Position numbers and translations under genes: made by a program. The notes under the pieces are model-generated. The model saw nothing but the letters and a program-made list of their open reading frames with translations. It had not been told where the DNA came from and made no database searches. This document shows, piece by piece, positions 13,058-49,448 of a DNA stretch of 64,000 nucleotides. Positions within the stretch are counted from its first letter, which is position 1, and each line of letters begins with the position of its first letter. The stretch comes from Candidatus Collierbacteria bacterium (lineage in GTDB: Bacteria; Patescibacteriota; Microgenomatia; UBA1400; MFAQ01). The stretch lies in contig CAISLM010000014.1 in NCBI GenBank assembly GCA_903886255.1, positions 13,562-77,561 of the forward strand, given 5' to 3'.

Positions 13058-15907
13058 ATGAGAGATTTGCGTGGGTTATTTTCGCCAAAATCCGTAACAA
13101 TAATTGGAGCATCGAAGTCCCCGGAAAAAGTAGGAGCAATCGTTTTAAAAAATATTATTGACTCCGGTTTCAAGGGAGCCGTGTACCCTGTTAATCCCAA
13201 AGAAACTGACATCTCCGGACTAAAGTGTTTCCCAAATGTAAATAGTCTCCCGGAAATTCCTGATTTGGCTGTGTTTGCTATTCCTTCTTCCGTTGCCATT
13301 GGTGTCCTGGAAGAAGTCGGAATAAAAGGCATAAAAAATGCAGTCATTTTTACCGCCGGATTTAAAGAGATTGGCAGAGAAGGGGAGATCTTAGAAAAAG
13401 AGCTTGTAGACGTTGCCAATAAATATCAAATTAATGTGTTGGGACCAAATTGTTTAGGATTTGCGAATAATAATTTGCCAATAAATGTTACCTTCGGACA
13501 AGTAGTCAAGGAACAAGGTAATCTTCGGATTATTTCTCAATCCGGAGCTATTGCTGCCAGTCTCTTTGATTGGTGTCAAACAACAAAGCTTGGATTTGGT
13601 GAATTCATCACAATCGGAAATAAAGCTGTAGTGACCGAAAATGACGTCTTAAATTACTGGGCGTCAAATCCTCAACCCATCATCGATCAGCCGGGAATTT
13701 CCAAAGTTTCACCTATTGGCTTATATTTAGAATCAATCGCCCAAGGCGAGGATTTTGTTAAAATCGCCACAGAAATTTCCAAAACAACACCCATATTTGC
13801 ACTTAAACCCGGTAAATCTATCGCAGCCGCATCAGCTATGCATTCGCACACCGGAGCTATCGCCGGTGTTGATAGCGTTCTTGACATCGCACTAAAACAG
13901 TCAGGGGTTATTCGATGTGCAGATTTAAATGTATTTTTTGATTTGGCGAGAGCCTTTTCTTGGGAAAATGTTCCTAAAGGCCCAAGAGTCGCTGTTGTAT
14001 CCAATGCCGGTGGTCCAGCTGTTCTTAGTACTGACTCTATTGAAGAATTTGGTTTACAAATGGCCCAGTTTGGATCAGAAACTCAAAAAAAATTAGCCGC
14101 CTTTTTGCCAAGGATGGCCAGCTTCCTTAATCCCGTTGATGTTTTGGGAGATGCTTTGGCAGACCGGTTTGGTCATGCCCTTGAAGCTGTTTTGCAGGAG
14201 CCGACTGTCGATGCCGCTATCGTCATTCTTACTCCTCAGTTAATGACTCAGATAGAAAAAACTGCCGAAATAATCGGCAATATGTCCGCCAAATTTTTTC
14301 AGCCGATTTTATGCTCATTTATTGGAGGAAGTTTGGCCGCGGTAGGAGAAAAAAAATTAAATGAATGTAAAATTCCTTCGTTCCCCTTTCCCGAAATGTC
14401 TATAAAAACACTTTCGTTGATGTGGAAATGGCAAGATTGGAGAAACAAAAACATCACTTTACCAACGCCCGAAGAATCTCTCTCTCAAAATACTGATACA
14501 GTAAAAAATATTTTATCTTCAGCCAGAGCCAATCGCCAACTAAATCTTGATAGCTTTGCGGCAAACGATGTCATGGTTGCCGCCGGGATCTCAACACCAC
14601 CCACACTCTCGGTGTCAGACTCATCCCAAGCACAGCAATTTGCCGACAAAGAAGGTTGGCCGGTCGTCCTAAAAATTTCGTCACCCAATCTATTACATAA
14701 GGCAGACGTTGGCGGGGTCATTGCACATATCCACAACACAAACGAGTTGTTGATTGCAGGAAATAAAATAATCCAACAAATTAGAACATTAGATCAGGAA
14801 ACAAAAAGTGGTGCCAAAATTCAAATTCAAAAAGAAATCATTGGCGGTGTCGAAGTAATCGTCGGAGTCAAAAGAGATCCTAATTTCGGACCGGTTATTT
14901 TGTTTGGAGCCGGAGGAAAATTCGCAGAGCTGCTGGTAGACAGGAACCTTCATCTTTTGCCTATCAACCGCGAGCAAGCCAAGCAATTAGTTGCCGGCTC
15001 AAAAGTTTATACGTTATTAAACGGATTCCGAGGGGATGAATCATACGATCTAGAGCCTTTGTACAGTACGATAATTCGTCTTGGACAGCTTGCTGAAATG
15101 GTCCCCGATATTGCTGAAATAGAAATCAATCCACTAATTATTACTCACAACGGAGTTTGGGCGGTAGACAGTAAGGTTGTCTTAACACAGCCAACCGACC
15201 GACCACTCAACATTCCTAAATTTAACTCTGCAACGGCTATTTCTCACAATATTCTTTCTCCAAATATTCACGAAATCGAGTTTCAAACTCAACTTCCAAT
15301 AGTAATCAAGTCCGGACAATTTATCAGTGTTAGAGTTAGTGATCAAAGAATCAACGCCTACTCAATCGCTGGGTCAACCGACCCAAATCATTTCCAACTA
15401 TTGATAGATGTCAGTCCTCAAGGCGTCGGTTCAAAATATTTTGAAAATTTGAAAGTAGGAGAAACAATTACTTTCTTAGGACCGGTCGGTTTATTTAATC
15501 TAAAGCCGGACGATGGCTCCCAACAACTTCTTTTCTTAGGAACAGGGTCGGGAATTGTTCCCCTGAAATTTATTATTGAAGATGCTCTAAAAAACAAAAA
15601 TATCACTCAACCAATCTCGCTTTATTTTGGCTTAAGATACAAAGAAGATATTTTTTGGCAAGATATTTTCGATGATTTAACCGGTAAATATCCCAATTTT
15701 CATTACAAACTTTGCTTGTCCAAACCAACGGAAGATTGGACAGGATACAAAGGGCATATCACCGACCTCGTTCACCAAGAGTTTCCTGACACTTCGCGAT
15801 GCGGTGCCTATTTGTGTGGCGGCAAGACAATGGTAGAAGAATCATCTAATATATTACTTAGCTCTGGTTGTCCGGCCGAAAGGATATATTCAGAAAAATT
15901 TAATTAA
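13058..15907 (+). CDS. acetate--CoA ligase (ADP-forming), fused alpha+beta, with C-terminal ferredoxin-NADP reductase-like FAD/NAD(P) domain
   Basis: N-terminal CoA-binding/ligase-CoA region (SVTIIGAS...VNP...NVLGPNCLG), central ATP-grasp-like part, C-terminal ~230 aa with FNR motifs RINAYSIAGS (RxYS), LFLGTGSGIVPL, YLCGGKTMVE, ERIYSEKF. Confidence 0.8.
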   Translation: MRDLRGLFSPKSVTIIGASKSPEKVGAIVLKNIIDSGFKGAVYPVNPKETDISGLKCFPNVNSLPEIPDLAVFAIPSSVAIGVLEEVGIKGIKNAVIFTAGFKEIGREGEILEKELVDVANKYQINVLGPNCLGFANNNLPINVTFGQVVKEQGNLRIISQSGAIAASLFDWCQTTKLGFGEFITIGNKAVVTENDVLNYWASNPQPIIDQPGISKVSPIGLYLESIAQGEDFVKIATEISKTTPIFALKPGKSIAAASAMHSHTGAIAGVDSVLDIALKQSGVIRCADLNVFFDLARAFSWENVPKGPRVAVVSNAGGPAVLSTDSIEEFGLQMAQFGSETQKKLAAFLPRMASFLNPVDVLGDALADRFGHALEAVLQEPTVDAAIVILTPQLMTQIEKTAEIIGNMSAKFFQPILCSFIGGSLAAVGEKKLNECKIPSFPFPEMSIKTLSLMWKWQDWRNKNITLPTPEESLSQNTDTVKNILSSARANRQLNLDSFAANDVMVAAGISTPPTLSVSDSSQAQQFADKEGWPVVLKISSPNLLHKADVGGVIAHIHNTNELLIAGNKIIQQIRTLDQETKSGAKIQIQKEIIGGVEVIVGVKRDPNFGPVILFGAGGKFAELLVDRNLHLLPINREQAKQLVAGSKVYTLLNGFRGDESYDLEPLYSTIIRLGQLAEMVPDIAEIEINPLIITHNGVWAVDSKVVLTQPTDRPLNIPKFNSATAISHNILSPNIHEIEFQTQLPIVIKSGQFISVRVSDQRINAYSIAGSTDPNHFQLLIDVSPQGVGSKYFENLKVGETITFLGPVGLFNLKPDDGSQQLLFLGTGSGIVPLKFIIEDALKNKNITQPISLYFGLRYKEDIFWQDIFDDLTGKYPNFHYKLCLSKPTEDWTGYKGHITDLVHQEFPDTSRCGAYLCGGKTMVEESSNILLSSGCPAERIYSEKFN

Positions 15908-15916
15908 ATCATATTT

Positions 15917-17635
15917 ATGTCAAATAAAGTCTACTCAATAAAAATAGGAGGAATGGCGGGTCAAGGTATAAAAAGTGCCGGATTAAATTTTGCCAAAGTT
16001 GCAGCCAGATCAGGTTATAACATCTACAACTATATTGAGTACCCTTCATTAATCAGGGGTGGCCACAATGTTATGCAAACTACTTTCTCTTTGGATGAGG
16101 TTCATTCACAGATTCAGTCTGTTGATTTTTTAATTGCTCTCAATCAAGAAACAATTAACCTTCATAAAGACGAATTAGTTTCAGGAGCAGGTATCATCTT
16201 TGAAGACGAAGGGAAAATTGATGCAACCGCCTGTAAAGACAAATGCCGACTTTTCGCAGTCCCTCTAAAAAAACTGGCCACTGAAGCCGGAGGTCAGGAA
16301 ATAGTTTCAAACAATGTTGCTCTTGGAGCATCTATTTCCTTAATGGGAGGAGACATAAAATATCTATTCGACTTAATCGATGAGGATTTTTCTTTCAAAC
16401 CGGAAATTGCCGAAATAAATAAAAAAGCTGCTCAATCCGGTTATGAATATGCCCAAACAAATTTCCCCAATAAATTTGATTCGTTGCTTACACCCCAAAA
16501 AAACGCCAATAAAAAAATTGTAGTCAATGGTACTGATGGAGTGGCCTTCGGTGCAATTGCGGCCGGACTTCAATATACAGCTATATATCCCATGTCACCG
16601 ACCTCAAACATTCTAACCATTCTCGCCGCCAATCAACGCGAATATGGATATATATACAAACAAGCAGAAGATGAAATTGCTGCCATAAATATGTCTCTTG
16701 GAGCCTCTTTTGCCGGAGCAAGAGCTATGACAACCACATCTGGTGGCGGGTTTTGTCTTATGACCGAAGGTTTTGGCTTAGCTGGGCAAACTGAAACGCC
16801 TATTGTCATTGTCGAGGGCATGAGAGGAGGCCCCGGTACCGGTTTGCCAACCTGGAGTGAACAGGGTGACTTGCGTATGGTGCTTCACGCGCACCAAGGT
16901 GAATTTCCCAGAATCGTAGTTGCCGCAGGCGATGCAGAGGAAGCTTTCCATCAAATAATGCTCGCCTTTAATCTTGCCGAAAAGTATCAAACGCCTGTTG
17001 TACTTTTGGTAGATAAAAATATTTTGGACGATGAACAAACATTCCCTAAATTCGACTATTCTTCATATCAGATTAATCGTGGCAAGATGGTCAGAGAAAA
17101 GGATCCTGAATACCACCGCTATGTCGTTACAGATGACGGCATTTCTCCTAGAACCATTCCGGGAGTAGGAAATCACCTTGTCGCCAATTCTGATGAACAT
17201 AACTCCTATGGTTATTCCAGCGAAACAATCTCCGACCGAAATGAACAAGTTCAAAAAAGATTGAGAAAACTAGAAACCTGTGCCAAAGAAGATATGGGAA
17301 AACCCATACTTTTTGGTCCTGAAAATGCAGAGATAACTATTGTTTCCTGGGGTAGTTGCAAAGGACCAATTTTGGAGGCTATGAAGGATTATCCCTTTGT
17401 AAATTACCTTCACATAAATTGGATTAATCCGTTCCCGGCAGACGCAATTAAAGCCATTCTTTCACGTTCCACGTACCTTTTAGATATCGAGTGCAACAGC
17501 ACGGCTCAGATGGCTGGTTTAATTAGGGAAAAAACGGGTATTGACATACTTGATAGATTTTTAAAGAACGACGGCCGTCCATTTTTCCCGGAAGAGATTA
17601 AAGATAAAATTAACAGTATTATAAAAACACGATGA
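15917..17635 (+). CDS. 2-oxoacid:ferredoxin oxidoreductase subunit alpha (gamma-alpha fused)
   Basis: N-terminal POR/KOR gamma-type domain (GGMAGQGIKSAG), then the alpha domain (TDGVAFGAIAAG...PMSPTS...GGGFCLMTEG). Confidence 0.85.
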   Translation: MSNKVYSIKIGGMAGQGIKSAGLNFAKVAARSGYNIYNYIEYPSLIRGGHNVMQTTFSLDEVHSQIQSVDFLIALNQETINLHKDELVSGAGIIFEDEGKIDATACKDKCRLFAVPLKKLATEAGGQEIVSNNVALGASISLMGGDIKYLFDLIDEDFSFKPEIAEINKKAAQSGYEYAQTNFPNKFDSLLTPQKNANKKIVVNGTDGVAFGAIAAGLQYTAIYPMSPTSNILTILAANQREYGYIYKQAEDEIAAINMSLGASFAGARAMTTTSGGGFCLMTEGFGLAGQTETPIVIVEGMRGGPGTGLPTWSEQGDLRMVLHAHQGEFPRIVVAAGDAEEAFHQIMLAFNLAEKYQTPVVLLVDKNILDDEQTFPKFDYSSYQINRGKMVREKDPEYHRYVVTDDGISPRTIPGVGNHLVANSDEHNSYGYSSETISDRNEQVQKRLRKLETCAKEDMGKPILFGPENAEITIVSWGSCKGPILEAMKDYPFVNYLHINWINPFPADAIKAILSRSTYLLDIECNSTAQMAGLIREKTGIDILDRFLKNDGRPFFPEEIKDKINSIIKTR

Positions 17636-18489
17636 TAACCGCTGCAGAATTAGCCACTCCAAATTTTCCGAACTGGTGCCCGGGTTGTGGCAACTTTGGT
17701 ATTTGGGCTGCTTTTAAAAACGCCGCCGTCACATCAGACTGGGACAATACAAATACCGCTTTTGTCGCCGGCATAGGCTGCCATGGGCATATGGTCAATT
17801 TTGTTAAACTTACCTCGTTCGAGGGACTGCACGGAAGACCAATTCCTGTGGCAACAGGAATAAAGATGGCTAATCACAGATTAAATGTTTTTGTTTTTAC
17901 CGGTGATGGCGATTGTCTCGGTGAAGGCGGAAATCATTTTATCAACGCAGCCCGGAGAAATCACAACATTACAGTCCTCTTACACAACAATAATATTTAT
18001 GGTCTGACCACCGGCCAAACCTCTCCCACCACCAGGAAAGATTTCCCAACCAAATCCACCCCGGACGGCAATCCCGATGAACCGTTTAAAGTTTTAAATC
18101 TGGCCATCGCCGCCGGAGCCACTTTTGCAGCCAGGGTCTACGCCAATGATATTGCCGGTCTTTCGGCCATGATCATTAAAGCTAATGAGCATCAGGGATT
18201 TTCTGTCGTGGAAATGCTCCAGCCCTGCATTACCTTCAACAAAGAATGTTCTCCCACTTTCTTTACGGATAATACTTATAAACTTCCCGATTCTTACGAT
18301 CCGACCAATATTGCTGCCGCTCTAGAAAAAACCTTGGAATTCGGTGAAAAACAAATTCCGGTAGGACTATTTTATAAAGTTGACAAACCAACTGCCGAAT
18401 CAGAATTTCCTCAGATAGATGCAAAGCCTTTAGTTGATAATCAAGTTGAAAAAAGAGATGTTTCCGAACTTTTGCAAACCCTTTATTAA
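17632..18489 (+). CDS. 2-oxoacid:ferredoxin oxidoreductase subunit beta (TPP-binding)
   Basis: WCPGCGNFG...GIGCHG...FTGDGDCLGEGGNHF TPP/Mg-binding pattern. ATGA overlap with the alpha subunit. Confidence 0.85.
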   Translation: MITAAELATPNFPNWCPGCGNFGIWAAFKNAAVTSDWDNTNTAFVAGIGCHGHMVNFVKLTSFEGLHGRPIPVATGIKMANHRLNVFVFTGDGDCLGEGGNHFINAARRNHNITVLLHNNNIYGLTTGQTSPTTRKDFPTKSTPDGNPDEPFKVLNLAIAAGATFAARVYANDIAGLSAMIIKANEHQGFSVVEMLQPCITFNKECSPTFFTDNTYKLPDSYDPTNIAAALEKTLEFGEKQIPVGLFYKVDKPTAESEFPQIDAKPLVDNQVEKRDVSELLQTLY

Positions 18490-18541
18490 TTAACAATGTC
18501 ATTCCCGACCGAGGTCGTGGAATCTATACAAATTACAAAAT

Positions 18542-18805
18542 ATGGATAATCAAACGCCAGCAACAGATAAAGAAGTCATGGTCGGTAAATACAAAGTTAA
18601 AGTTGTTCGCAATATGTGCATCGGAGCAGCCACTTGTGTCGCAGTAGCCGCCGCCAATTTTCAGCTGGATTCGGAAAACAAAGCAGTCCCGGCAGAAGGA
18701 GGAGCCGATTTGGAAGCAGCGGTTCTTTTGGCCGCCCAATCATGTCCCACCAAAGCCATTGTGATTATTGATACCACCACCGGCAAACAAGTCTGGCCCG
18801 ACTAA
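18542..18805 (+). CDS. small single-cluster ferredoxin
   Basis: CIGAATC...CP spacing typical of mono-cluster [3Fe/4Fe-4S] ferredoxins. The real start is possibly the internal MVGKYKV (~18578). Confidence 0.6.
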   Translation: MDNQTPATDKEVMVGKYKVKVVRNMCIGAATCVAVAAANFQLDSENKAVPAEGGADLEAAVLLAAQSCPTKAIVIIDTTTGKQVWPD

Positions 18806-19527
18806 ATACTTTCAGCCACCTTCCTTGTCCAAAACCTAAGCCTTTCGCTTTGATTTTGTGTGAGTTTGGCAGCCAAATAACCTAGATGGACCGCGATATC
18901 ATTTCCAATGTTCAGCCCATGGGTTAGATCAGGATCAATTCGCACCTCTTGTTTTCTGGAATTTACTTCATATTTACCATCGTTTTTGACATTTATAATT
19001 TCTCTCTCCACGGATGCCTTCGCATTATTTGTATCTAGTGCTATTACTTTTCCATATGCCACCATACAGTTATTTATTCTATTTTCCTTTTCCGCATTTT
19101 CATAATCGGCTGCTGCAATTAAAATTACCTGTGAAAGGTGGGTTAAATATAATTTTTCCGGCAGTTGTTTTTCAAGGCCTTTTGCAAATCCGCCCGGCAG
19201 TTGTTTTTCATATTGATCTACTAACGCCTCTCCAGCATTATCGGCAGCTATTTCAGTTAGATCTTCACCCAGCCAATACGACTCAACAACATGTTCGTCA
19301 AACATATCCAAGCCACTAGTTTGAGAAATTGCTCTAAGAAAAGCATTCAAATGTGGAAAACCATGGTTGCAAAGAGTTTCTCTAACCAAATCGTAATCTA
19401 ATTCTTTTTCCGATACGAGGTTCCTTAATATTACCTGGCTAGCATCCTCTCCACAAAAACCCCACATATTTGGCTGTATTGCAAATCTCGCAGCATTTTC
19501 CAGTCCATCCATTATATTTTCCTTCAT
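18802..19527 (-). CDS. hypothetical protein; C-terminal ~95 aa resembles a HypC/HupF-like beta-barrel
   Basis: CMVAYGKVIALD...EVRIDPDLTHGLNIGNDIAVHLGYLAAKL parallels the HypC consensus (MCLAIPxKVIxID...VxLxLVP...VGDYVLVHVGFA). Its Cys is internal, not N-terminal. Confidence 0.45.
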   Translation of the reverse strand: MKENIMDGLENAARFAIQPNMWGFCGEDASQVILRNLVSEKELDYDLVRETLCNHGFPHLNAFLRAISQTSGLDMFDEHVVESYWLGEDLTEIAADNAGEALVDQYEKQLPGGFAKGLEKQLPEKLYLTHLSQVILIAAADYENAEKENRINNCMVAYGKVIALDTNNAKASVEREIINVKNDGKYEVNSRKQEVRIDPDLTHGLNIGNDIAVHLGYLAAKLTQNQSERLRFWTRKVAESI

Positions 19528-19564
19528 TACTGAGATTATATTACTTTCGTTATAATGAACCTAA

Positions 19565-19963
19565 ATGAATATCTTAGTTTTTGGCAACCAAGACCACCCT
19601 GATGATAATCTTGCATTTAAAGTCTCGGAAAAACTAAGCGGCTTAGCCAATATTTCCTTTCAGGTCATTAATCCAAATTCAGATATTCCACTTCCGGACA
19701 ATAAAAAGATATATCTAATCGACACAGTAGTCGGAATTGATAATGTGACACTTATTACGGAAAATGATCTCAATAAAATACTTCTCTCTCCAAGAACAAC
19801 CGCACATGATTATGACTTGGGATTTCAACTCAAATATTTAACAAAAATTGGCAAAATAAAAAAAGTCTTCATTATCGGCTTGCCCATTAGCGGAAATGTG
19901 GATTACGATCTAATCCACTTGATCTTAAGAAAGTTGGTTGCGCAAGACATGCAAGGATCATAA
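19565..19963 (+). CDS. hydrogenase maturation endopeptidase (HycI/HoxW/HybD family)
   Basis: MNILVFGNQDHPDDNLAFKV N-terminus matches the family ILVLGxGNxLxxDDGxGxxV. Its 3' end overlaps the large-subunit 3' end by 61 nt (convergent). Confidence 0.7.
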   Translation: MNILVFGNQDHPDDNLAFKVSEKLSGLANISFQVINPNSDIPLPDNKKIYLIDTVVGIDNVTLITENDLNKILLSPRTTAHDYDLGFQLKYLTKIGKIKKVFIIGLPISGNVDYDLIHLILRKLVAQDMQGS

Positions 19964-21204
19964 GCTCGTATTATCTTTTCGGCGTTTAATTTCAAAGTTT
20001 GTTCATCTTTATCCAGGTTTGCTCCGAAATATTTTTTAAGATCGTTTTCTATGTTAATTTGGTTTTGTGCCGTCGGTACAATCACGTCGTAGTTTTTTAT
20101 TCTGCCCTTACTGTCAGTTTCAACATGATGATATAGTGTTCCTCTCGGAGCTTCTACAACCCCAACTCCTACACCTGCTTTTGGGGGCTGGGTAATTGGT
20201 TTTTCTTCCACTAATTTTATCGATTTTAATATTTCGATCGAATCGTCTACACAATTAAGTATTTCGATAGCTTGAGCCAAATTATTGTGATAAACGTTAT
20301 TTGAAGGAAATATGTCCAAATATTTTGCCGCATCTGTTTTAGTTCTTTGATTCAACAGTTCTTTTTCCAAATTTATTCTGGCTAGAGCCCCCACTAAATA
20401 ATCATCGTGTGTATCGGAAAAGATATAACCTTCCGACTGAGAATAAGGAATAATTACAGAATGTAGAAAATCGTGAAAATGTTCTTCCGTAGTGATTCTG
20501 CCACTACTATTAACAATATTTCCTTCCAAGAAATCATAATGATCGGAATTTTTTAAGCAAAGATAGTCTGAATTTCTCACGAGAACATCCGGCATTTTTG
20601 AAAAAGCTTCAATACCTCTTAATACTTGAACACGAATTTTTTCCAGTCGATCAATCATTGTTGGGAATAACGAGGGATCAGGCATCTTTAAGAATCCTCC
20701 CACTGTCGGAAGTGGCGCATGAATAGCTGCTCCGGAGATCATAACCGAAAGATCGGATCCGACCTCCTTTATGTCAAACGAGTCGTGTAACAATTGGTGG
20801 CCGAGATTTCCGTCTTCGTCCGGAATATCCAATATTGAATCGATACCCAGCAGATCCGGCAATACAAAAAAATATAAGTGGAGTGCATGATCACGTATCA
20901 TCAAGCCGTTGTAGGTTAATCTTCTCAGTAATTTTGTCTGATCTGAAGGAATAATTCCTTGAGATTTTTCAATCGCCTCAATGGAGCAAAGCAAATGGGC
21001 TATCGAACAAGTTCCGCAGATTCTCGAAATAAATGAAGGAACTGCCACAAAAGGTTTTCCTTCGACTGCTTTTGCATAGAAACGTCGATAATCCTTAATC
21101 ATAAATTTCAGATCAACTACCTTATCATCTACTATTTTTACCTTCAAACCGGCCGTGCCTTCGATCTTAGTAATATTTTCGATCGTGATATCTGCTGTAT
21201 GCAT
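19903..21204 (-). CDS. [NiFe] hydrogenase large subunit (433 aa, short group 3/4-like form)
   Basis: L1 motif RICGTCSIAH near the N-terminus and L2 motif DPCMSCATN with a 9-aa C-terminal extension. Confidence 0.85.
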   Translation of the reverse strand: MHTADITIENITKIEGTAGLKVKIVDDKVVDLKFMIKDYRRFYAKAVEGKPFVAVPSFISRICGTCSIAHLLCSIEAIEKSQGIIPSDQTKLLRRLTYNGLMIRDHALHLYFFVLPDLLGIDSILDIPDEDGNLGHQLLHDSFDIKEVGSDLSVMISGAAIHAPLPTVGGFLKMPDPSLFPTMIDRLEKIRVQVLRGIEAFSKMPDVLVRNSDYLCLKNSDHYDFLEGNIVNSSGRITTEEHFHDFLHSVIIPYSQSEGYIFSDTHDDYLVGALARINLEKELLNQRTKTDAAKYLDIFPSNNVYHNNLAQAIEILNCVDDSIEILKSIKLVEEKPITQPPKAGVGVGVVEAPRGTLYHHVETDSKGRIKNYDVIVPTAQNQINIENDLKKYFGANLDKDEQTLKLNAEKIIRAYDPCMSCATNFLKIKWIRS

Positions 21205-21209
21205 TATTT

Positions 21210-21698
21210 TTAAATTATGTTAAACAATTTTAAATATTTATCGACTATTTTGACAAATATATCCGGATTCATCGGACAACCATTAACTTCATCATCTACC
21301 TTTACGAAATCGGAAATCTTTTGTACATCCTTACTGTAGTCGAAGTGACACATATAAAATGCAATCTTGTAATTAATTTCTTCAGGCATAAAAGCATTCC
21401 TGCTGGATGAAGGTTGTCCTGTGCATGCACAAGCACCGATCGTTACCAAATATTTACAATTCTCTCTAATTTTCTTTAAATCCGCTTCTTGTAATTCTGA
21501 TGAGATTGCACCTTCTACAAAAGCAACATCCAAACCCTCAATGCTATTATTGGTTTTTAAAGCTTTGAAATGCTGAAAATCAATCACTTTTTTCCATTCG
21601 TCCAGATGTCTATTAAGCATTTCTGTCAGTAGGATTGTGCTGTCTTCACAACAAGTAAACGAAAACCAGCCAATTTTAAGTTTCTGTTTATTATCCAT
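21210..21698 (-). CDS. [NiFe] hydrogenase small subunit, minimal (proximal-cluster domain only)
   Basis: FTCCEDS, GACACTGQP, GCPMNP are the proximal [4Fe-4S] ligands. Only ~160 aa with no medial/distal cluster domain. Start chosen at MDNKQK; the ORF track extends to 21791. Confidence 0.7.
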   Translation of the reverse strand: MDNKQKLKIGWFSFTCCEDSTILLTEMLNRHLDEWKKVIDFQHFKALKTNNSIEGLDVAFVEGAISSELQEADLKKIRENCKYLVTIGACACTGQPSSSRNAFMPEEINYKIAFYMCHFDYSKDVQKISDFVKVDDEVNGCPMNPDIFVKIVDKYLKLFNII

Positions 21699-21715
21699 GC
21701 TAATATCCATTATAT

Positions 21716-21925
21716 ATGTGTCTAGCATACCCAGGAATAGTAAAAGAAATAAATGGTTTAAAAGCAACTGTCGAATATCCATCTTTTTCAAAAAATGTGC
21801 TGGTAGGCGACCAATATGTAAAGGTTGGGGACAGGGTATTGGTTCAAATGGGGATAATCATAAAAACTATTTCCACAAAAGAGTCCAAGCTAATCACAAA
21901 AGCGTGGGATGAAATTTCAAAATAA
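21716..21925 (+). CDS. hypC: hydrogenase maturation factor HypC/HupF
   Basis: MCLAYPGIVKEINGLKATV...VKVGDRVLVQMGIIIK matches HypC, with Cys2 N-terminal after Met removal. Confidence 0.8.
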   Translation: MCLAYPGIVKEINGLKATVEYPSFSKNVLVGDQYVKVGDRVLVQMGIIIKTISTKESKLITKAWDEISK

Positions 21926-22636
21926 TTAAAATCCTCTAGCATCTCTAAGCGCCTTTATGTTCATTTGAATTCTCGTAAATGCGGTTACCGAACTGTATAA
22001 ATAAAATTTATTATTTTTTTTGGCATCAGAAGGCAAGTCTCTTGGCTTTGCATATATCCTCACCTTACCAATATCCAAAAGCATCAGATACCAACTTGAA
22101 TCAGCATTAACAACAATGTGAAATGGTCCGTCAGGCATTAGTTCAATGCCTGACTTATTTGCCAAATAGAGAATATTCTCCGCTTCTTCTTGAAGCATTT
22201 TTCGAGGGATCTTTACAAACTCCTTATCCATAGGAAAAGTATCCCTTACCTCGGAAGCATCGATCTTTTGATCATAAACACTGGTCACCTCGTCGGCAGA
22301 CAGGTTTGTTGTTGCTACAGTGTTATCATCGACTTTTCGAACAGTTGGGACGACAGTAAATCCACGTTCTCTTAAAGTCTTCCACGCCAAATCATAAGTA
22401 TCCGAGTATGAGAGCGATCTATCAAAGTCGAAACCGGTCAGAGTCGGCAAACAAAAATCTTCGACCTTTCTAGTTAGTACACTAGCTTTATGTTTTTCTC
22501 CAAGATCAAAATATATAAAACTTTTATTTTCTGCGGCTTGTCTTGTTTTTGGAATATGATATTCGAATCTAATAGGGAAAACCGACACTTTTTCCGGAAG
22601 TCCAAATTTTTTCAAATTTATTGATTTTTCTACCAT
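21926..22636 (-). CDS. hypothetical protein
   Basis: 236-aa ORF with no recognised motif. Tightly packed between hypC and ppdK. Confidence 0.45.
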   Translation of the reverse strand: MVEKSINLKKFGLPEKVSVFPIRFEYHIPKTRQAAENKSFIYFDLGEKHKASVLTRKVEDFCLPTLTGFDFDRSLSYSDTYDLAWKTLRERGFTVVPTVRKVDDNTVATTNLSADEVTSVYDQKIDASEVRDTFPMDKEFVKIPRKMLQEEAENILYLANKSGIELMPDGPFHIVVNADSSWYLMLLDIGKVRIYAKPRDLPSDAKKNNKFYLYSSVTAFTRIQMNIKALRDARGF

Positions 22637-22709
22637 ACAGCCGTATATTCTACTCCAAATTCATTTGCTAATTGCCAAAAAGGTCCTTAACCATTAAAGT
22701 ATTATCTGT

Positions 22710-25349
22710 ATGAAAAAATATGTCTATTCTTTTGGGAGTCAGTCGACTGAAGGCTCAGCCGATATGAAATATATTTTGGGTGGTAAAGGAGCTAACCTTG
22801 CCGAGATGAGTAAAATCGGAATCCCGGTTCCCCCAGGATTCACGATTTCGACTGAGGTTTGTAAAGATTTCAGCAATAACGGAAATAAATATCCATCAGG
22901 TTTGGAAACGGAAGTCGAAGACTACTTGGTCAAACTGGAGATTGTCACCGGAAAAAAATTTGGAGACGTCAAAAATCCTCTTTTAGTCTCCGTTCGTTCC
23001 GGGGCTGCCTCATCTATGCCGGGAATGATGGATACAATTTTGAATCTTGGTTTAAATGAAGAAGTAGCATCTAGTATTGCAAACAGCACCGACAATCCTC
23101 GCTTCGCTTGGGATTCATATCGCAGATTTGTCCAAATGTATGGAAACGTCGTTGAAGGTATCGAGCACGAAAAATTCGAAACTGTAATTGATGAAATAAA
23201 GTCCGGTAAGGGAATAAAAGGCGACACAGATATGACAGCAGACGATTGGCAGGCTGTTGTAAAAGGCTATAAAAAATTATTCAAAATAGAAAAAGGCAGA
23301 GATTTCCCTGACGATGCCAAAGAACAGCTCTGGGGTGCTATCAAGGCGGTAATTGGTTCTTGGAATAATCAACGCGCCATAACCTATCGTCGTCTCAATC
23401 ATATTGATGAGAATAAAGTTTTCGGCACAGCCGTTAACATTCAATCAATGGTTTTTGGCAATCTAGGTAGTGATTCCGGAACTGGTGTCGCTTTTACCCG
23501 TAATCCCGCAACCGGAGAAAACGTTCCTTATGGAGAGTATCTAATGAACGCCCAAGGCGAAGACGTTGTCGCCGGAATTCGTACTCCCAAACATTTAGAC
23601 TCTCTTAAAGAAGACAATGAAGTTGTTTACAAACAGCTCATCGATATTTTTTCCACACTGGAAAAACACTATAAAGACATGCAAGATGTTGAATTTACAA
23701 TAGAAAATGGGAAACTCTTCATTCTTCAAACCCGCAATGGCAAAAGAACTGCTCCTGCATCTGTAAAAATAGCAGTTGATTTAGTTAAAGAAAAAAGAAT
23801 TACCGAGAAAGAGGCCATACTCCGTGTAGAACCGGAAAAATTAGAGCAACTTCTTCACCCAACTCTAGATCCAAAATCAAAATCTAAATTCAAAATGATA
23901 GCAAAAGGTTTACCTGCTTCTCCTGGTGCAGGGGTTGGTCAGGCGGTTTTCAATGCGCAGACCGCTGTTGACTGGAAAGAAAACGGCAAGAAAGTTATCT
24001 TAGTTCGTGCCGAAACATCTCCGGAAGATATCTCTGGAATGGATGCTGCAGAAGGAATACTAACCGCAAGAGGAGGTATGACCTCTCATGCTGCAGTTGT
24101 AGCAAGAGGCATGGGAAAGTGCTGTGTCGCTGGTTGTGAAGTGTTAACAGTGTCAGAGATAGAAAAGAAATTCCGTGTCGGAGAAATAATCGTCAACGAA
24201 GGTGATGTCATAACCCTTGATGGTTCCACCGGAGAAGTTTTCTTGGGGCAGGTCCCCACAATTGACCCTGAGTTGTCAGGATACTTTGGCACTATCATGG
24301 AATGGTCGGATAAATATAAAAAGCTAGGTGTTCGCACTAATGCAGATACACCAAGAGATGCGAAAGTTGCTAGAGACTTCGGAGCTGCAGGTATCGGTCT
24401 TTGTCGTACGGAACATATGTTTTTCCAAGCAGACCGAATTTTTGCTGTCCGTCAAATGATTGTTTCCGAAACTCTTGATCAGCGAAAGGCTGCTCTATCC
24501 AAAATCTTTCCCATGCAAAAGAATGATTTCATCGAACTATTTAGAATTATGAAGGGTTTTCCGGTAAAGATTAGACTTCTTGATCCACCTCTACATGAAT
24601 TTTTACCTAAGACCAAAGAAGAGATAGAAGATATTGCCAAAGAAATGGGAATTTCTGCAGAAAAGTTAACCGAAAAAGTTGAATATCTTCATGAATTCAA
24701 TCCCATGATGGGGCATCGTGGTTGCCGATTGGGGGTTACCTTCCCGGAAATATTCGAAATGCAAGTTGAGGCAATTGCGCAGGCAGCTTGCGAGCTAATC
24801 AAAAAAGGGGAATCTATTGTTCCCGAAATCATGATCCCCTTAGTCGGAGAATTCAATGAATTAAAGTGGTTAAAAGATCGTTTAGTTCCGGTAATAGAAT
24901 CCACAATTAAAAAATATGGTGTAAAAATGGTTTATGAAATTGGTACCATGATTGAAATTCCACGTGCGGCACTAACCGCCGACACTATCGCCACTGAGGC
25001 TGATTTCTTTTCCTTTGGAACTAACGACTTGACCCAAATGACTTACGGCTTCTCTCGCGATGACGCAGGGAAATTCTTAAAAGATTACCTCGAAAAGAAA
25101 ATTCTTCCCGAAGACCCATTTAAGAGTCTCGATACAGTTGGAGTAGGGAAATTAATGAAAATGGCAGTCGATCTAGGCAGAAGTACGAAGAAAAATCTAC
25201 ATATCGGAATTTGCGGCGAACAGGGTGGCGATCCGGCAACAATAAAATTTTGCCATCAAATAGGCTTAAATTATGTTTCTTGTTCACCATATCGCGTTCC
25301 GATTGCGCGACTCGCCGCCGCCCAGGCTGCAATTGAGTCGGAAAAATAA
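22710..25349 (+). CDS. ppdK: pyruvate, phosphate dikinase
   Basis: 879 aa. N-terminal LGGKGANLAEM, central phosphohistidine domain GGMTSHAAVVARGMGKCCV, C-terminal PEP-utilising TIM barrel (CGEQGGDP). Confidence 0.95.
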   Translation: MKKYVYSFGSQSTEGSADMKYILGGKGANLAEMSKIGIPVPPGFTISTEVCKDFSNNGNKYPSGLETEVEDYLVKLEIVTGKKFGDVKNPLLVSVRSGAASSMPGMMDTILNLGLNEEVASSIANSTDNPRFAWDSYRRFVQMYGNVVEGIEHEKFETVIDEIKSGKGIKGDTDMTADDWQAVVKGYKKLFKIEKGRDFPDDAKEQLWGAIKAVIGSWNNQRAITYRRLNHIDENKVFGTAVNIQSMVFGNLGSDSGTGVAFTRNPATGENVPYGEYLMNAQGEDVVAGIRTPKHLDSLKEDNEVVYKQLIDIFSTLEKHYKDMQDVEFTIENGKLFILQTRNGKRTAPASVKIAVDLVKEKRITEKEAILRVEPEKLEQLLHPTLDPKSKSKFKMIAKGLPASPGAGVGQAVFNAQTAVDWKENGKKVILVRAETSPEDISGMDAAEGILTARGGMTSHAAVVARGMGKCCVAGCEVLTVSEIEKKFRVGEIIVNEGDVITLDGSTGEVFLGQVPTIDPELSGYFGTIMEWSDKYKKLGVRTNADTPRDAKVARDFGAAGIGLCRTEHMFFQADRIFAVRQMIVSETLDQRKAALSKIFPMQKNDFIELFRIMKGFPVKIRLLDPPLHEFLPKTKEEIEDIAKEMGISAEKLTEKVEYLHEFNPMMGHRGCRLGVTFPEIFEMQVEAIAQAACELIKKGESIVPEIMIPLVGEFNELKWLKDRLVPVIESTIKKYGVKMVYEIGTMIEIPRAALTADTIATEADFFSFGTNDLTQMTYGFSRDDAGKFLKDYLEKKILPEDPFKSLDTVGVGKLMKMAVDLGRSTKKNLHIGICGEQGGDPATIKFCHQIGLNYVSCSPYRVPIARLAAAQAAIESEK

Positions 25350-26707: not shown

Positions 26708-27076
26708 ATGATCAAAAAAACAATTTTCGCTATCACTTTGGCGCTACTCCTTTCGGCTTGTACTCTCTATGGAGGAAATTCATCTGCCGCTCCTGTTCAA
26801 AATCCATCTTCCACCACTCATGCACAGGGAGACATCACAATTATGAATTTTGCCTTTTCACCACAGTCTATTACAGTGAAGCCGGGCCAAACAGTCACGA
26901 TCGTAAATAACGACTCGGTTACCCACACTTTTACGAGCGACGATGGTACCTCGTTTAATACCAACAGCATTGAGCCGGGAGCCACAGCCACCATTACAGC
27001 GCCCAGTGCATCAGGAACTTATGGATTTCACTGCAATATCCACAAGAGCATGACCGGCACCCTTATCGTACAGTAG
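26708..27076 (+). CDS. cupredoxin (blue copper) domain lipoprotein
   Basis: Lipobox LLLSAC. Type-1 Cu ligands: H in VTHTFTS and C/H/M in HCNIHKSMTGTL (C-x2-H-x4-M). Confidence 0.7.
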   Translation: MIKKTIFAITLALLLSACTLYGGNSSAAPVQNPSSTTHAQGDITIMNFAFSPQSITVKPGQTVTIVNNDSVTHTFTSDDGTSFNTNSIEPGATATITAPSASGTYGFHCNIHKSMTGTLIVQ

Positions 27077-27082
27077 TTAAAG

Positions 27083-28423
27083 ATGGAAAATAATGAGATT
27101 TTTTCTTCAGTCACGAACTTTCATACTGCTTTTATAAATGGTCTGGACAAAATTTTAAGCAGTGAAGATCTCAAACCAGCCTCATTCAATTTGGTTTTTG
27201 GTAATGCCATCTATCATCACCAAGAAAGAGAATTCCTGGAAAGGCTTGAGTCGGCAAAAGCCAAATTAGCTGCAGCAATCGACCCAAACTCCACCGACGA
27301 CGACTCAGTCATTTTCTTGAAGTTAAAGGACATGAAGTTGGATTGGCAAAACTGGACTATGTTGGAAGATCGGAAAATTAATTCCTGGAATGTTCAGCTG
27401 AATAAATTTAGAGTCTTAAAACCAAGGGGATTTTCCGACCTATTAATTACTCAAGTTCATTTGCCCTTCAATGGAAACGACTTTAATTTCAATAAAATAT
27501 CGGATCCTACACTCTGGTCCGGTGAAATAATCGGTAGAAAAGTCTCACTCTATTACAACAAATTCCCCAACAAAGACCTTCAAACGCTTCTTGTTCTTGA
27601 TCCGGACCAGAATAAGGAACAATTCCTCACGGAAGAAGACCATAATTTTGTCTTTGAAATGACAAGTTCACTTAGCCGTCTTTACAACGTTTCTTTTGGA
27701 TACAATTCCCTGGGCGCTTCCGCATCCATTAATCACCTTCATTTTCATCTTATGATTGGTATAGAAAAGCTTCCGGTGGCCGAAGACGAATGGCTGCACA
27801 ACGGCGGCAGCAAAACATATCCTGCCAACATTTATGTCTTTAATAATCCTGAGGAATCCTGGAAACTAATCGACAAACTCAATCAAAAGAATGTTGCCTA
27901 CAACATTCTTTATCTTCCCGGGAAAGTCTTTATCTTTCCAAGAAAATTCATGGGTACATATAAAGCAGTACCTTGGTCTACAAGTTTTGGCTGGCTTCAA
28001 TTTTCCGGTAACTTTACAGTCTATGATGAAGACGCAGTCAATCGGCTAACTGAAGATATTATTAACGAAGCATTGCAAGATGCATCAATAAAACTGGAGG
28101 AACAAACGGGTATGGGAACATATATTACAATAGCCAAATTAGAGGACGTAAAAGAAGGTAAACCGCATTGTGTGGACGTGGAGGGCAAAAGTCTCGCAGT
28201 GTTCAAGGTGGGTGATGAATATTTCGCCACTACCGGAATTTGCACACATGCAGGAGGACCTTTGTGTCAAGGGGAAATAGTTAATGGAGTTGTAACCTGC
28301 CCCTGGCATGGTTCACAATTCGACGTAAAAAATGGTAAGGTCGAAAGAGGTCCTGCCAAGGATCCAATAAAGACATACAAGTTGCGAAAAACAGACACGA
28401 CACTGGAAGCAGATCTTGTTTAA
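27083..28423 (+). CDS. fusion protein: HIT-superfamily GDP-sugar phosphorylase-like domain (VTC2/GDPGP1-like) + C-terminal Rieske [2Fe-2S] domain
   Basis: SINHLHFHLM closely resembles the VTC2/GDPGP1 HIT motif (NHLHFQ). The C-terminus has CTHAGGPL-x16-CPWHG Rieske CxH...CxxH. Confidence 0.6.
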   Translation: MENNEIFSSVTNFHTAFINGLDKILSSEDLKPASFNLVFGNAIYHHQEREFLERLESAKAKLAAAIDPNSTDDDSVIFLKLKDMKLDWQNWTMLEDRKINSWNVQLNKFRVLKPRGFSDLLITQVHLPFNGNDFNFNKISDPTLWSGEIIGRKVSLYYNKFPNKDLQTLLVLDPDQNKEQFLTEEDHNFVFEMTSSLSRLYNVSFGYNSLGASASINHLHFHLMIGIEKLPVAEDEWLHNGGSKTYPANIYVFNNPEESWKLIDKLNQKNVAYNILYLPGKVFIFPRKFMGTYKAVPWSTSFGWLQFSGNFTVYDEDAVNRLTEDIINEALQDASIKLEEQTGMGTYITIAKLEDVKEGKPHCVDVEGKSLAVFKVGDEYFATTGICTHAGGPLCQGEIVNGVVTCPWHGSQFDVKNGKVERGPAKDPIKTYKLRKTDTTLEADLV

Positions 28424-43234: not shown

Positions 43235-43262
43235 GGAGGCACATTCGTGCCTCCATTTTTTA
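43235..43262 (+). terminator. rho-independent terminator after pncB (bidirectional with pgm)
   Basis: GGAGGCACattcGTGCCTCC followed by ATTTTTTATTT. Confidence 0.65.
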
Positions 43263-44699: not shown

Positions 44700-44758
44700 C
44701 CTAAGGTTAACAGAATCACATTCTTGATGTCAAACAATAATACGTATATATTGACCTA

Positions 44759-46075: not shown

Positions 46076-46099
46076 GATGTTGGTATACTAAATTAGCCA

Positions 46100-49447: not shown

Positions 49448-49448
49448 C

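What the first reader, a model, noticed from the sequence alone, without database searches (positions are those of the whole stretch)
19565..21925. Two-gene [NiFe] hydrogenase with a minimal proximal-cluster-only small subunit and no co-encoded electron-transfer subunits
The large subunit (433 aa; RICGTC / DPCMSC) and the ~160-aa small subunit (only the three proximal-cluster Cys motifs, no medial/distal cluster domain) are the only structural genes. Maturation protease and hypC flank them. No diaphorase (FAD/NAD), FeS-rich or membrane subunits are encoded nearby, unlike group 3b/3c/4 systems. Candidate partners in the window are the mono-cluster ferredoxin (18542) and the FNR domain fused to acetyl-CoA synthetase (15200-15907). 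The protease gene and the large subunit converge with a 61-nt overlap that encodes the cleaved C-terminal extension.
Basis: partly seen in the sequence, partly recalled or inferred. Interest (0 to 1): 0.55.

Follow-up and report, generated by a model that had tools for sequence, protein, structure and literature searches.

The report
Minimal two-subunit CPR NiFe hydrogenase
This is a real, intact two-subunit nickel-iron hydrogenase of the "hyd2" type already described in Candidate Phyla Radiation bacteria in 2020. Its conserved neighbours (a 2-oxoacid oxidoreductase, a small ferredoxin and an NAD(P)-binding flavoprotein module) suggest that it releases fermentation electrons as hydrogen gas.

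Summary
Window 19565-21925 encodes a 433-aa [NiFe] large subunit with all four active-site cysteines, and a 162-aa small subunit that is only the N-terminal, proximal-cluster domain. A divergent HycI-family protease and HypC flank them. The protease and large-subunit genes converge with a 61-nt overlap.

The short small subunit is not an assembly artefact. The identical locus recurs on independent contigs, and the 120 homologues listed, of 1,936 found, are 160-203 aa (all but one at most 179).

The architecture is already published. Jaffe et al. 2020 (PMC7304191) named it "hyd2": a group-3b-related CPR clade with a truncated small subunit and no co-located beta or gamma subunits. They left its function uncertain.

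Comparison of 79 related genome loci adds the following:
- A conserved convergent block next to the hydrogenase: [ADP-forming acyl-CoA synthetase-FNR fusion, 2-oxoacid:ferredoxin oxidoreductase alpha and beta, 3-Cys ferredoxin].
- A conserved DUF6390 gene that is a HypC-like fusion protein.
- A non-canonical first Cys motif in the small subunit (TC[C/S]EDS in place of CxxC).
- Asn in place of the usual His/Arg at the expected cleavage site.

The best reading is a ferredoxin-linked, H2-evolving heterodimer. Interest is moderate and the core finding is already known.

The parts
19903..21204 (-). [NiFe]-hydrogenase large subunit, 433 aa (RICGTCSIAH; EAPRG; DPCMSC-AT-N + 9-aa tail FLKIKWIRS)
   Evidence: Pfam NiFeSe_Hases E 1.8e-27. 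Best NCBIfam match is the 3b HydA model, 221 bits against a cut-off of 880. Best PDB matches are the 3b alpha subunits 5yxy_A (200 bits) and 9nez_D (196 bits). The four Cys are present in every sequence covering those columns.
21210..21698 (-). Small subunit, 162 aa; single flavodoxin-like domain for the proximal cluster only; motifs TCCEDS, GACACTG, GCPM
   Evidence: Pfam Oxidored_q6. Aligns with residues 12-153 of the 266-residue SHI delta chain. AlphaFold2 pLDDT 84.7. Foldseek matches: SHI delta TMq 0.71/TMt 0.46, HydS 7t2r_E 0.71/0.64, HoxY 5xf9_C 0.70/0.64. The 120 listed homologues are 160-203 aa.
19565..19963 (+). Divergent HycI/HybD-family maturation endopeptidase, 132 aa, antisense between the large subunit and DUF6390
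   Evidence: 13 of 14 family members hit Pfam HycI (best E 1.4e-6). G7, N8, D14, D53, H81 and D82 are invariant. The only PDB profile hit is the endopeptidase 5ija_A, E 0.44. Present in 49 of 49 close loci.
19903..19963 (.). 61-nt convergent overlap of the 3' ends of the protease and large-subunit genes (covers YDPCMSCATNFLKIKWIRS* on one strand and DYDLIHLILRKLVAQDMQGS* on the other)
   Evidence: Sequence. Exactly 61 nt in 43 of 55 close loci.
21716..21925 (+). HypC chaperone, 69 aa, divergent from the small subunit; the two start codons are 17 nt apart
   Evidence: Pfam HupF_HypC E 8.9e-12. Cys2 is invariant. Present in 42 of 46 close loci.
18802..19527 (-). DUF6390 protein, 241 aa: helical N-domain plus a HypC-like OB-fold C-domain. 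Same strand as, and downstream of, the large subunit. Probable hydrogenase-specific chaperone.
18542..18805 (+). Single-cluster ferredoxin, 87 aa, CxxAxxC...CP (three invariant Cys); candidate redox partner
   Evidence: Pfam Fer4_13 and Fer4_15. Cys pattern. Present in 30 of 47 close loci and, by clustering, in 10 distant-clade loci in other arrangements.
15917..18489 (+). Two-subunit 2-oxoacid:ferredoxin oxidoreductase (572-aa subunit with POR and POR_N domains; 285-aa TPP-binding beta subunit)
   Evidence: Pfam POR, POR_N, TPP_enzyme_C and PFO_beta_C. Present in 28 of 38 (alpha) and 28 of 42 (beta) close loci.
13058..15907 (+). ADP-forming acyl-CoA synthetase fused to a C-terminal FNR-like FAD/NAD(P)-binding module (residues 726-949, about 15212-15907); no Fe-S domain
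   Evidence: Pfam CoA_binding, Succ_CoA_lig, ATP-grasp_5, FAD_binding_6 and NAD_binding_1. NCBIfam. Fused or split FNR in 28 of 33 close loci.

Best explanation
The locus encodes a cytosolic heterodimeric [NiFe]-hydrogenase of the CPR "hyd2" type.

The 433-aa catalytic subunit is related to group 3b. The 162-aa small subunit carries a single proximal Fe-S cluster. That cluster would have to exchange electrons directly with an external carrier, because the medial and distal clusters and the beta and gamma diaphorase subunits of true 3b enzymes are missing.

The most likely carrier is the 87-aa single-cluster ferredoxin encoded about 1 kb away. The proposed flow is inferred, not shown:
1. The two-subunit 2-oxoacid:ferredoxin oxidoreductase oxidises pyruvate or another 2-oxoacid and reduces the ferredoxin.
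2. The ADP-forming acyl-CoA synthetase turns the acyl-CoA into ATP.
3. The hydrogenase re-oxidises the ferredoxin by making H2.
4. The FNR module fused to the synthetase equilibrates ferredoxin with NAD(P)(H). Hydrogenase, ferredoxin and FNR together would then do in three pieces what a 3b tetramer does in one.

The locus also encodes maturation factors: HypC, a HypC-like DUF6390 protein that is probably a second, large-subunit-specific chaperone, and a divergent HycI-type endopeptidase.

What is shown: gene identities, domain content, completeness, conserved synteny and motif conservation.

What is inferred: the electron partner, the direction of catalysis, cleavage of the tail and the DUF6390 role.
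For: **Identity and completeness**
- The catalytic motifs are kept in every relative compared. These are the proton-relay Glu in KIEG, RICGTC, EAPRG and DPCMSC.

**Published match**
- Jaffe 2020 describes hyd2 with a mean small-subunit length of 164 aa and no co-located beta or gamma subunits.

**Link to the partners**
- In the window, ACS-FNR, OFOR alpha, OFOR beta and ferredoxin form a tightly spaced string on one strand. It converges on the small subunit, large subunit and DUF6390 genes.
- The block is kept across large subunits of 63-84% identity. Counts among loci with enough flank: FNR 28 of 33, OFOR alpha 28 of 38, OFOR beta 28 of 42, ferredoxin 30 of 47. The genes on the HypC side are not conserved.
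- In the 45-52% clade, ferredoxin and FNR reappear in other arrangements. In L073, FNR and ferredoxin lie upstream of the hydrogenase genes on the same strand.
- FNR occurs fused to the synthetase, split next to it, or free.

**Biochemical precedent**
- An engineered alpha-delta heterodimer of P. furiosus SHI is active, cannot use NADPH, and takes electrons directly from pyruvate:ferredoxin oxidoreductase (PMC3200332).

**Maturation set**
Against: - There are no biochemical or expression data.
- The synteny could reflect a shared fermentation island rather than direct electron transfer.
- Ferredoxin is absent from about a third of the close loci with enough flank.
- The ferredoxin has only three Cys (CxxAxxC...CP). 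It may therefore hold a [3Fe-4S] cluster whose potential could be too positive for proton reduction.
- The proximal-cluster ligands of the small subunit are non-canonical. Ser replaces the second Cys of CxxC, and only C16, C90 and C141 are invariant. The type and potential of that cluster are unknown.
- hypA, B, D, E and F were not found in the window, in the flanks read beyond its ends, or as a recurrent family within 10 kb in the 79 related loci. Maturation capacity is therefore unverified.
- Beta or gamma subunits encoded elsewhere in the genome cannot be excluded with these tools.
Confidence: 0.6

Rival explanations
1. NAD(P)-linked bidirectional hydrogenase assembled from separate parts. 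The physiological couple would be H2/NAD(P)H, as in group 3b. The FNR module would act as the diaphorase and the small ferredoxin as a bound or diffusible wire. The OFOR linkage would be secondary.
For: FNR, fused or free, is the best-conserved redox neighbour (28 of 33 loci). It recurs in the distant clade, where in L073 FNR and ferredoxin lie just upstream of the hydrogenase genes on the same strand, and FNR is also near the hydrogenase in the DPANN loci L056 and L057. The large subunit is closest to NADP-linked 3b enzymes.
Against: The FNR domain resembles BenC/MmoC/Fre-type reductases (115 bits) much more than the 3b gamma subunit (41 bits), and it has no Fe-S domain. In most loci it is covalently fused to the acyl-CoA synthetase rather than placed next to the hydrogenase. 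The engineered alpha-delta SHI dimer cannot use NADPH.
Confidence: 0.2
2. Direct OFOR-hydrogenase coupling. The heterodimer would dock on the 2-oxoacid oxidoreductase and take electrons from its Fe-S cluster without a free ferredoxin.
For: This is the behaviour reported for the engineered P. furiosus SHI alpha-delta dimer with POR (PMC3200332). OFOR is found in 28 of 38 (alpha) and 28 of 42 (beta) loci, about as often as ferredoxin in 30 of 47.
Against: The engineered delta subunit still had all three clusters, whereas this one has only the buried proximal cluster. A ferredoxin gene follows OFOR beta directly in the window. The distant clade keeps ferredoxin but not OFOR near the hydrogenase.
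Confidence: 0.1
3. Ordinary tetrameric group 3b hydrogenase whose beta and gamma subunits are encoded elsewhere in the genome.
For: The large subunit is most similar to 3b alpha subunits. The whole genome could not be searched.
Against: The small subunit lacks the C-terminal half that carries the medial and distal clusters. No beta or gamma gene lies in the 64-kb window, in the flanks read beyond its ends, or within 10 kb in the 79 related loci. Jaffe 2020 did not find them consistently in hyd2 genomes.
Confidence: 0.05
4. Artefact or relic: a small subunit truncated by misassembly, or a decaying, non-catalytic hydrogenase-like pair.
For: None beyond the unusual shortness, the non-canonical Cys motif, and the lack of hyp genes nearby.
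Against: The identical locus is on at least 19 independent contigs. The 120 listed small-subunit homologues, of 1,936 found, are 160-203 aa. All active-site motifs are kept across clades that have diverged to 45-84% identity. Dedicated HypC, a HypC-like protein and a protease are retained.
Confidence: 0.03

Closest known systems
[quoted passage not shown] 2020, BMC Biol 18:69, PMC7304191)
   Same: CPR host lineages. Large subunit related to 3b. Small subunit consistently truncated (published mean 164 aa; 162 aa here). No co-located beta or gamma subunits. A HypC-like neighbour. An NAD-binding protein nearby but not on the same strand.
   Different: Nothing essential; the window is a member. 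This analysis adds several points that the paper's hydrogenase section does not spell out: the conserved ACS-FNR/OFOR/ferredoxin block, the HypC-like nature of DUF6390, the non-canonical first Cys motif, Asn at the expected cleavage site, and the fixed 61-nt overlap.
Group 3b sulfhydrogenase SHI/SHII of Pyrococcus furiosus and the Thermococcus kodakarensis cytosolic hydrogenase (PDB 9nez, 9e15, 5yxy)
   Same: Best sequence and structure matches for both subunits. Cytosolic. Alpha subunit of similar size (428 against 433 aa). Short C-terminal tail.
   Different: The 3b enzymes are alpha-beta-gamma-delta tetramers. Their delta subunit is about 260 aa, and their gamma subunit binds NAD(P). Here delta is 162 aa and beta and gamma are absent. 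The scores lie far below the NCBIfam equivalog cut-offs (221 against 880 bits). The residue before the tail is Asn rather than His, and the tail is 9 rather than 4 residues.
Engineered alpha-delta heterodimer of P. furiosus SHI (Hopkins et al. 2011, PMC3200332; structures 9e15 and 9e1j)
   Same: A two-subunit 3b-type enzyme that is active, does not use NADPH, and accepts electrons from pyruvate:ferredoxin oxidoreductase. It is the nearest functional analogue of what is proposed here.
   Different: It is man-made and keeps the full-length delta subunit.
Single-cluster small subunits HoxY (group 3d, 5xf9_C) and HydS (HydABCSL, 7t2r_E)
   Same: Small subunits of the same size class and fold that carry only the proximal cluster (Foldseek TMq 0.70-0.71, TMt 0.64).
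   Different: Those enzymes are wired to NuoE/F/G-like diaphorase or bifurcating modules, and none is present here. Sequence similarity is weak (HoxY 22 bits, HydS 34 bits).
Group 4 ferredoxin-dependent hydrogenases (Ech, Mbh) and complex I NuoB/NuoD
   Same: A ferredoxin-coupled enzyme with a proximal-cluster-only, NuoB-like small subunit. The fold matches complex I PSST (TMq about 0.6).
   Different: Those are membrane-bound, ion-translocating complexes. The large subunit here scores only 18 bits against the NuoD model, and no membrane subunits are encoded.

Membership tests
[NiFe]-hydrogenase (catalytic heterodimer) | Large subunit with the N-terminal RxCGxCxxxH motif and the C-terminal DPCxxC motif (four Ni-Fe cysteines) | tested here: met
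   RICGTCSIAH and DPCMSC are present in every sequence covering those columns in the 76-sequence alignment. Pfam PF00374 E 1.8e-27.
[NiFe]-hydrogenase (catalytic heterodimer) | Small subunit with four Cys ligands for the proximal cluster (CxxC ... GxCxxxG ... GCP) | tested here: inconclusive
   The GxC and GCP motifs are present. In CxxC, the second Cys is Ser20 in 181 of 188 sequences, and an extra Cys16 is invariant. 183 of 188 still have at least four Cys, counting C17 and/or C92. Cluster type cannot be tested here.
Group 3b (NADP-coupled sulfhydrogenase) | Large subunit clusters with 3b sequences | tested here: inconclusive
   The best hits are 3b (HydA 221 bits, ShyA 205, against FrhA 137 and VhuA 128; PDB 3b 200 bits against Mvh 161 and Hox 110). 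All are far below the equivalog cut-offs. No HydDB run or phylogeny was possible.
Group 3b (NADP-coupled sulfhydrogenase) | Delta small subunit of about 250-260 aa, including the C-terminal part that carries the medial and distal clusters | tested here: not met
   The small subunit is 162 aa and aligns with residues 12-153 of the 266-residue SHI delta chain only.
Group 3b (NADP-coupled sulfhydrogenase) | Co-encoded beta (AsrA-like Fe-S) and gamma (AsrB/PyrK-like FAD-NAD(P) plus [2Fe-2S]) subunits | tested here: not met
   Absent from the window and from the flanks read beyond its ends. Absent within 10 kb in the 79 related loci. The rest of the genome could not be searched.
CPR hyd2 clade (Jaffe 2020) | CPR host; 3b-related large subunit; small subunit of about 164 aa; no co-located beta or gamma subunits; HypC-like neighbour | tested here: met
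   The closest relatives are Patescibacteria/Microgenomates, WWE3 and Dojkabacteria records. The small subunit is 162 aa. Context. Published description.
CPR hyd2 clade (Jaffe 2020) | Placement inside the hyd2 branch of the published large-subunit tree | not testable with these tools
   The reference alignment and tree are not available here. Membership is inferred from features and from homologues named after the genome sets used in that study (for example P0040, from an Uhrbacteria RIFCSPLOWO2 genome).
Group 3d (HoxHY plus diaphorase) / HydABCSL | NuoE/NuoF/NuoG-like flavin and Fe-S diaphorase subunits next to the hydrogenase genes | tested here: not met
   No such genes in the window or in related loci.
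Group 4 (Ech/Mbh-type) | Membrane-integral NuoH/NuoL-like subunits and a NuoD-like large subunit | tested here: not met
   The NuoD model scores only 18 bits. No membrane subunits are adjacent.
HycI/HybD maturation endopeptidase | Family profile match and the acidic/Asp/His metal-binding triad | tested here: met
   13 of 14 members hit PF01750 (best E 1.4e-6); the window protein alone scores 16.5 bits, below the cut-off of 23. D14, D53 and H81 are invariant. Assigning these to the triad rests on my own knowledge of HybD.
HypC/HupF chaperone (for DUF6390) | OB-fold with the essential Cys at the N-terminus (residue 2) | tested here: inconclusive
   The OB-fold and profile match are met. The invariant Cys154 aligns with HypC Cys2, but it is internal, preceded by a 153-residue helical domain. 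A free N-terminal Cys is therefore not available unless the protein is processed.

The most novel reading that the evidence does not exclude
Hyd2 could be a naturally minimal, soluble, non-bifurcating, ferredoxin-dependent [NiFe]-hydrogenase, an enzyme class with no characterised representative that I know of. On this reading:
- It has an atypically ligated proximal cluster (Cys16/Cys17 or Cys92, Cys90, Cys141, with Ser in place of the canonical second Cys).
- It has its own maturation pair: HypC plus a HypC-fusion DUF6390 protein.
- It is genetically wired to a self-contained 2-oxoacid-to-acid + ATP + H2 module, whose acyl-CoA synthetase carries a fused ferredoxin:NAD(P) reductase.
Probability: 0.4. 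Interest if true: 0.6.

Novelty: already known. Interest (0 to 1): 0.38.

Why it matters
Hyd2 is widespread in CPR bacteria. The search found 5,807 large-subunit homologue clusters at E <= 1e-10, a figure that includes relatives outside hyd2, and relatives also occur in DPANN archaea. It is routinely annotated as an NADP-dependent "sulfhydrogenase", yet it lacks the subunits that give 3b enzymes that activity.

If it is ferredoxin-linked, then hydrogen production by these ultra-small fermenters is tied directly to 2-oxoacid oxidation and substrate-level ATP synthesis. That would change how H2 budgets and syntrophic roles are inferred from metagenomes.

The conserved ferredoxin, FNR and OFOR genes give concrete partners for a reconstitution experiment. 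A natural 595-residue catalytic pair would also interest those engineering minimal hydrogenases.

Tried and rejected
- **Assembly artefact or truncated small subunit.** Rejected. The identical locus lies on at least 19 contigs, and the 120 listed homologues of 1,936 found are short.
- **Extra hydrogenase subunits just outside the finding.** Rejected after reading the gene calls for the whole window plus about 10 kb upstream and 6 kb downstream.
- **Recurrent neighbour families as hidden subunits or hyp genes.** None qualified. They were an EamA transporter, SUF proteins, Nramp, Fur, RuBisCO, a type IV coupling protein and GNAT.
- **Either/or use of Cys17 and Cys92 as the fourth cluster ligand.** Not supported. 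Six sequences lack both, against 9.6 expected by chance.
- **The conserved large-subunit tail as a by-product of dual coding with the protease.** Rejected as the sole cause. The tail is equally conserved in the distant clade, which mostly lacks the overlap.
- **Promoter and terminator scans of 18400-22800.** No more sites than in shuffled sequence, so uninformative.
- **PDB profile search with the protease family.** One weak hit only (E 0.44). The assignment rests on Pfam hits across the family.
- **Metagenome scan seeded with DUF6390.** Returned only two loci. Both carry the hydrogenase cluster, but two are too few for an independent linkage test.
- **Literature searches.** Searches for DUF6390 and for hypD, hypE and hypF in CPR returned nothing. 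One search that combined ADP-forming acetyl-CoA synthetase, ferredoxin, hydrogenase and CPR returned nothing whose title or abstract bore on the fusion.


Full report
**1. What is in the sequence**

The stretch 18.8-21.9 kb carries these genes:

| Coordinates | Strand | Product |
|---|---|---|
| 21210-21698 | minus | Small subunit, 162 aa as called in public assemblies |
| 19903-21204 | minus | Large subunit, 433 aa |
| 18802-19527 | minus | DUF6390 protein, 241 aa |
| 19565-19963 | plus | 132-aa protease, lying antisense between the large subunit and DUF6390 |
| 21716-21925 | plus | HypC, 69 aa |

- The HypC start codon is only 17 nt from the small-subunit start codon, and the two genes diverge.
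- Pfam assigns NiFeSe_Hases, Oxidored_q6, HupF_HypC and DUF6390 with good E-values.
- The protease scores below the HycI cut-off on its own (E 0.008). However, 13 of 14 relatives hit HycI (best E 1.4e-6), and G7, N8, D14, D53 and H81 are invariant.
- The two 3' ends overlap by 61 nt (19903-19963). One strand reads YDPCMSCATNFLKIKWIRS*. The other reads DYDLIHLILRKLVAQDMQGS*.

**2. The locus is real and complete**

- The identical large subunit, with the same neighbours, lies on at least 19 contigs from independent samples.
- 1,936 small-subunit homologues were found, and the 120 listed are 160-203 aa, 119 of them at most 179.
- In 49 of 49 close genome loci the small subunit is short, and it directly precedes the large subunit.
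- The small subunit aligns with residues 12-153 of the 266-residue P. furiosus SHI delta chain.
- Its AlphaFold2 model (pLDDT 84.7) covers less than half of SHI delta (TMt 0.46). It covers most of the single-cluster subunits HydS and HoxY (TMt 0.64).
- The large subunit keeps RICGTCSxAH and DPCMSC in every relative compared. The window protein also has the KIEG Glu and the EAPRG Arg.

**3. Who carries it**

- The closest relatives (63-84% identity) come from Patescibacteria: Shapirobacteria, Collierbacteria, Woesebacteria, Daviesbacteria, WWE3 and Dojkabacteria. Some MAG records in this set carry other taxon names (Gammaproteobacteria, Saccharibacteria, Rubrobacteraceae).
- A second clade at 45-52% identity comes from Peregrinibacteria, Parcubacteria and DPANN archaea.
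- Both clades have the short small subunit. Neither has beta or gamma genes nearby.

**4. Prior knowledge**

- Jaffe et al. 2020 (PMC7304191) split the CPR 3b-related hydrogenases into hyd1 and hyd2.
- They also noted a HypC-like family nearby, and that NAD-binding proteins occur in the vicinity but are neither proximal nor on the same strand.
- They concluded that the function "remains uncertain".

**5. What the comparison of 79 loci adds**

Counts among close-clade loci with enough flank:

| Gene | Loci that have it |
|---|---|
| Protease | 49 of 49 |
| HypC | 42 of 46 |
| DUF6390 | 42 of 49 |
| Ferredoxin | 30 of 47 |
| OFOR beta | 28 of 42 |
| OFOR alpha | 28 of 38 |
| ACS-FNR or free FNR | 28 of 33 |

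- The genes on the HypC side of the window (a 236-aa unknown, PPDK) match at most a few of the related loci.
- In the window, ACS-FNR (13058-15907), OFOR alpha and beta (15917-18489) and ferredoxin (18542-18805) form a tight string on one strand. It converges on the hydrogenase unit.
- The FNR module takes several forms:
  - It is fused to the synthetase in about 24 loci.
  - It is split into adjacent genes in L025 and L047.
  - It is free in L021, L028, L031, L035 and L037.
- In the distant clade, ferredoxin recurs in 10 loci in other arrangements. In L073, FNR and ferredoxin lie upstream of the small and large subunit genes on the same strand. Recurrence in shuffled contexts is the strongest evidence here for a functional link.
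- The FNR domain resembles BenC/MmoC/Fre-type reductases (115 bits) far more than the 3b gamma subunit (41 bits), and it has no Fe-S domain. It is an analogue of gamma, not a displaced copy.

**6.

a. The first Cys motif of the small subunit is TC[C/S]EDS.
   - Against SHI delta (SCYGC) and Mvh-type subunits (CSGC), the canonical pair maps to positions 17 and 20.
   - Position 20 is Ser in 181 of 188 sequences.
   - Cys16 is new and invariant. C17 and C92 are each present in roughly 70-85%.
   - 183 of 188 sequences still have at least four Cys, and five have three.

b. The residue before the C-terminal tail is Asn in the close clade (56 sequences) and His in the distant clade (19). The 9-residue tail (F, L, K, W) is 84-99% conserved in both clades. 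Overlap with the protease gene therefore cannot be the only reason for its conservation. Cleavage is assumed, not shown.

c. The 61-nt overlap is fixed in 43 of 55 close loci.

d. DUF6390 is a two-domain protein.
   - It has a helical N-domain with no informative structural match, followed by a HypC-like OB-fold.
   - hhalign gives probability 93.6% and E 2e-7, with invariant C154 aligned to HypC Cys2.
   - 22 of 23 members hit HupF_HypC.
   - It is most simply read as a second, enzyme-specific chaperone, comparable in role to HupF or HoxL. That comparison rests on my own knowledge.
   - No paper in the library mentions DUF6390.

**7. Mechanism**

- With a single proximal cluster and no internal wire, the heterodimer would have to be served directly by an external carrier.
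- The conserved neighbours point to the 3-Cys ferredoxin, reduced by the two-subunit OFOR.
- The ADP-forming synthetase would harvest ATP. The FNR module would couple ferredoxin to NAD(P)(H).
- An engineered alpha-delta dimer of P. furiosus SHI gives a biochemical precedent. It is active, ignores NADPH, and accepts electrons directly from POR (PMC3200332).
- The rivals are an NAD(P)-linked "split 3b", direct OFOR docking, remote beta and gamma subunits, and a relic. They are weighed in the Rival explanations section.

**8. Caveats**

- No hypA, B, D, E or F genes were found in the window, in the roughly 10 kb upstream and 6 kb downstream that could be read, or recurrently near related loci.
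- The whole genome could not be searched.
- No HydDB run or phylogeny was possible.
- The types and potentials of the clusters in the ferredoxin and the small subunit are unknown.
- There are no expression or activity data.

**9. Verdict**

- The kind of system is already described as hyd2, with its function left open.
- The synteny, the DUF6390/HypC relationship and the non-canonical cluster ligands turn that open question into a set of direct experiments.
- Interest is moderate.

Noticed in passing
window 13058-15907 (FNR module about 15212-15907): An ADP-forming acyl-CoA synthetase carries a C-terminal FNR-like FAD/NAD(P)-binding domain with no Fe-S domain. The roughly 950-aa fusion is conserved in about 24 related CPR loci. 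It is split into adjacent genes in L025 and L047. One literature search combining ADP-forming acetyl-CoA synthetase, ferredoxin, hydrogenase and CPR found nothing relevant by title or abstract.
   Followed up: partly
window 18802-19527: The DUF6390 protein is a helical N-domain fused to a HypC-like OB-fold. Its invariant internal Cys154 aligns with the essential Cys2 of HypC. It is conserved next to hyd2 in 42 of 49 close loci, and no paper in the library mentions it.
   Followed up: yes
window 21698-21716: The HypC and small-subunit start codons diverge with only 17 nt between them, and related loci show the same spacing. Both promoters must therefore lie inside the neighbouring coding sequence.
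   Followed up: partly
window 26708-28423: A secreted-looking cupredoxin (122 aa) is followed by a 446-aa fusion of a GDP-L-galactose-phosphorylase-like N-domain (GDPGP1_N) with a C-terminal Rieske [2Fe-2S] domain. This is an unusual domain combination for a presumed fermentative CPR bacterium.
   Followed up: no
window 28420-29205 (minus strand): A lone 261-aa membrane protein has a weak RnfD/NqrB-family hit. No other Rnf or Nqr genes are nearby.
   Followed up: no
window 22710-25349 and 43260-52239: There are two PPDK/PEP-synthase-type genes. There is also a compact sugar-metabolism block of phosphoglucomutase, GH57, PGI, PEP-utilising enzyme, enolase and iPGM. Both fit a fermentative lifestyle that would feed the OFOR/hydrogenase module.
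   Followed up: no
related loci, e.g. L029:3317-4240; absent from the window: An EamA/DMT-family transporter of about 307 aa sits between DUF6390 and the ferredoxin gene in 32 close loci. It is missing at that position in the window and in its nearest relatives (L003, L005, L007), and no copy was found anywhere in the window.
   Followed up: partly
related loci L009, L017, L025, L041, L072, L080; L005: SUF Fe-S assembly genes (SufC, SufBD, SufS, NifU-like) lie next to the hydrogenase cluster in several related loci, and an Nramp metal transporter in a few. Neither is in the window.
   Followed up: partly
L058, L060, L064, L065, L076 (Peregrinibacteria-type loci): In the distant clade the two-gene hydrogenase lies a few genes from a form II/III-like RuBisCO, a Fur regulator, and a 4-Cys single-cluster ferredoxin (CxxCxxC...CP).
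   Followed up: no
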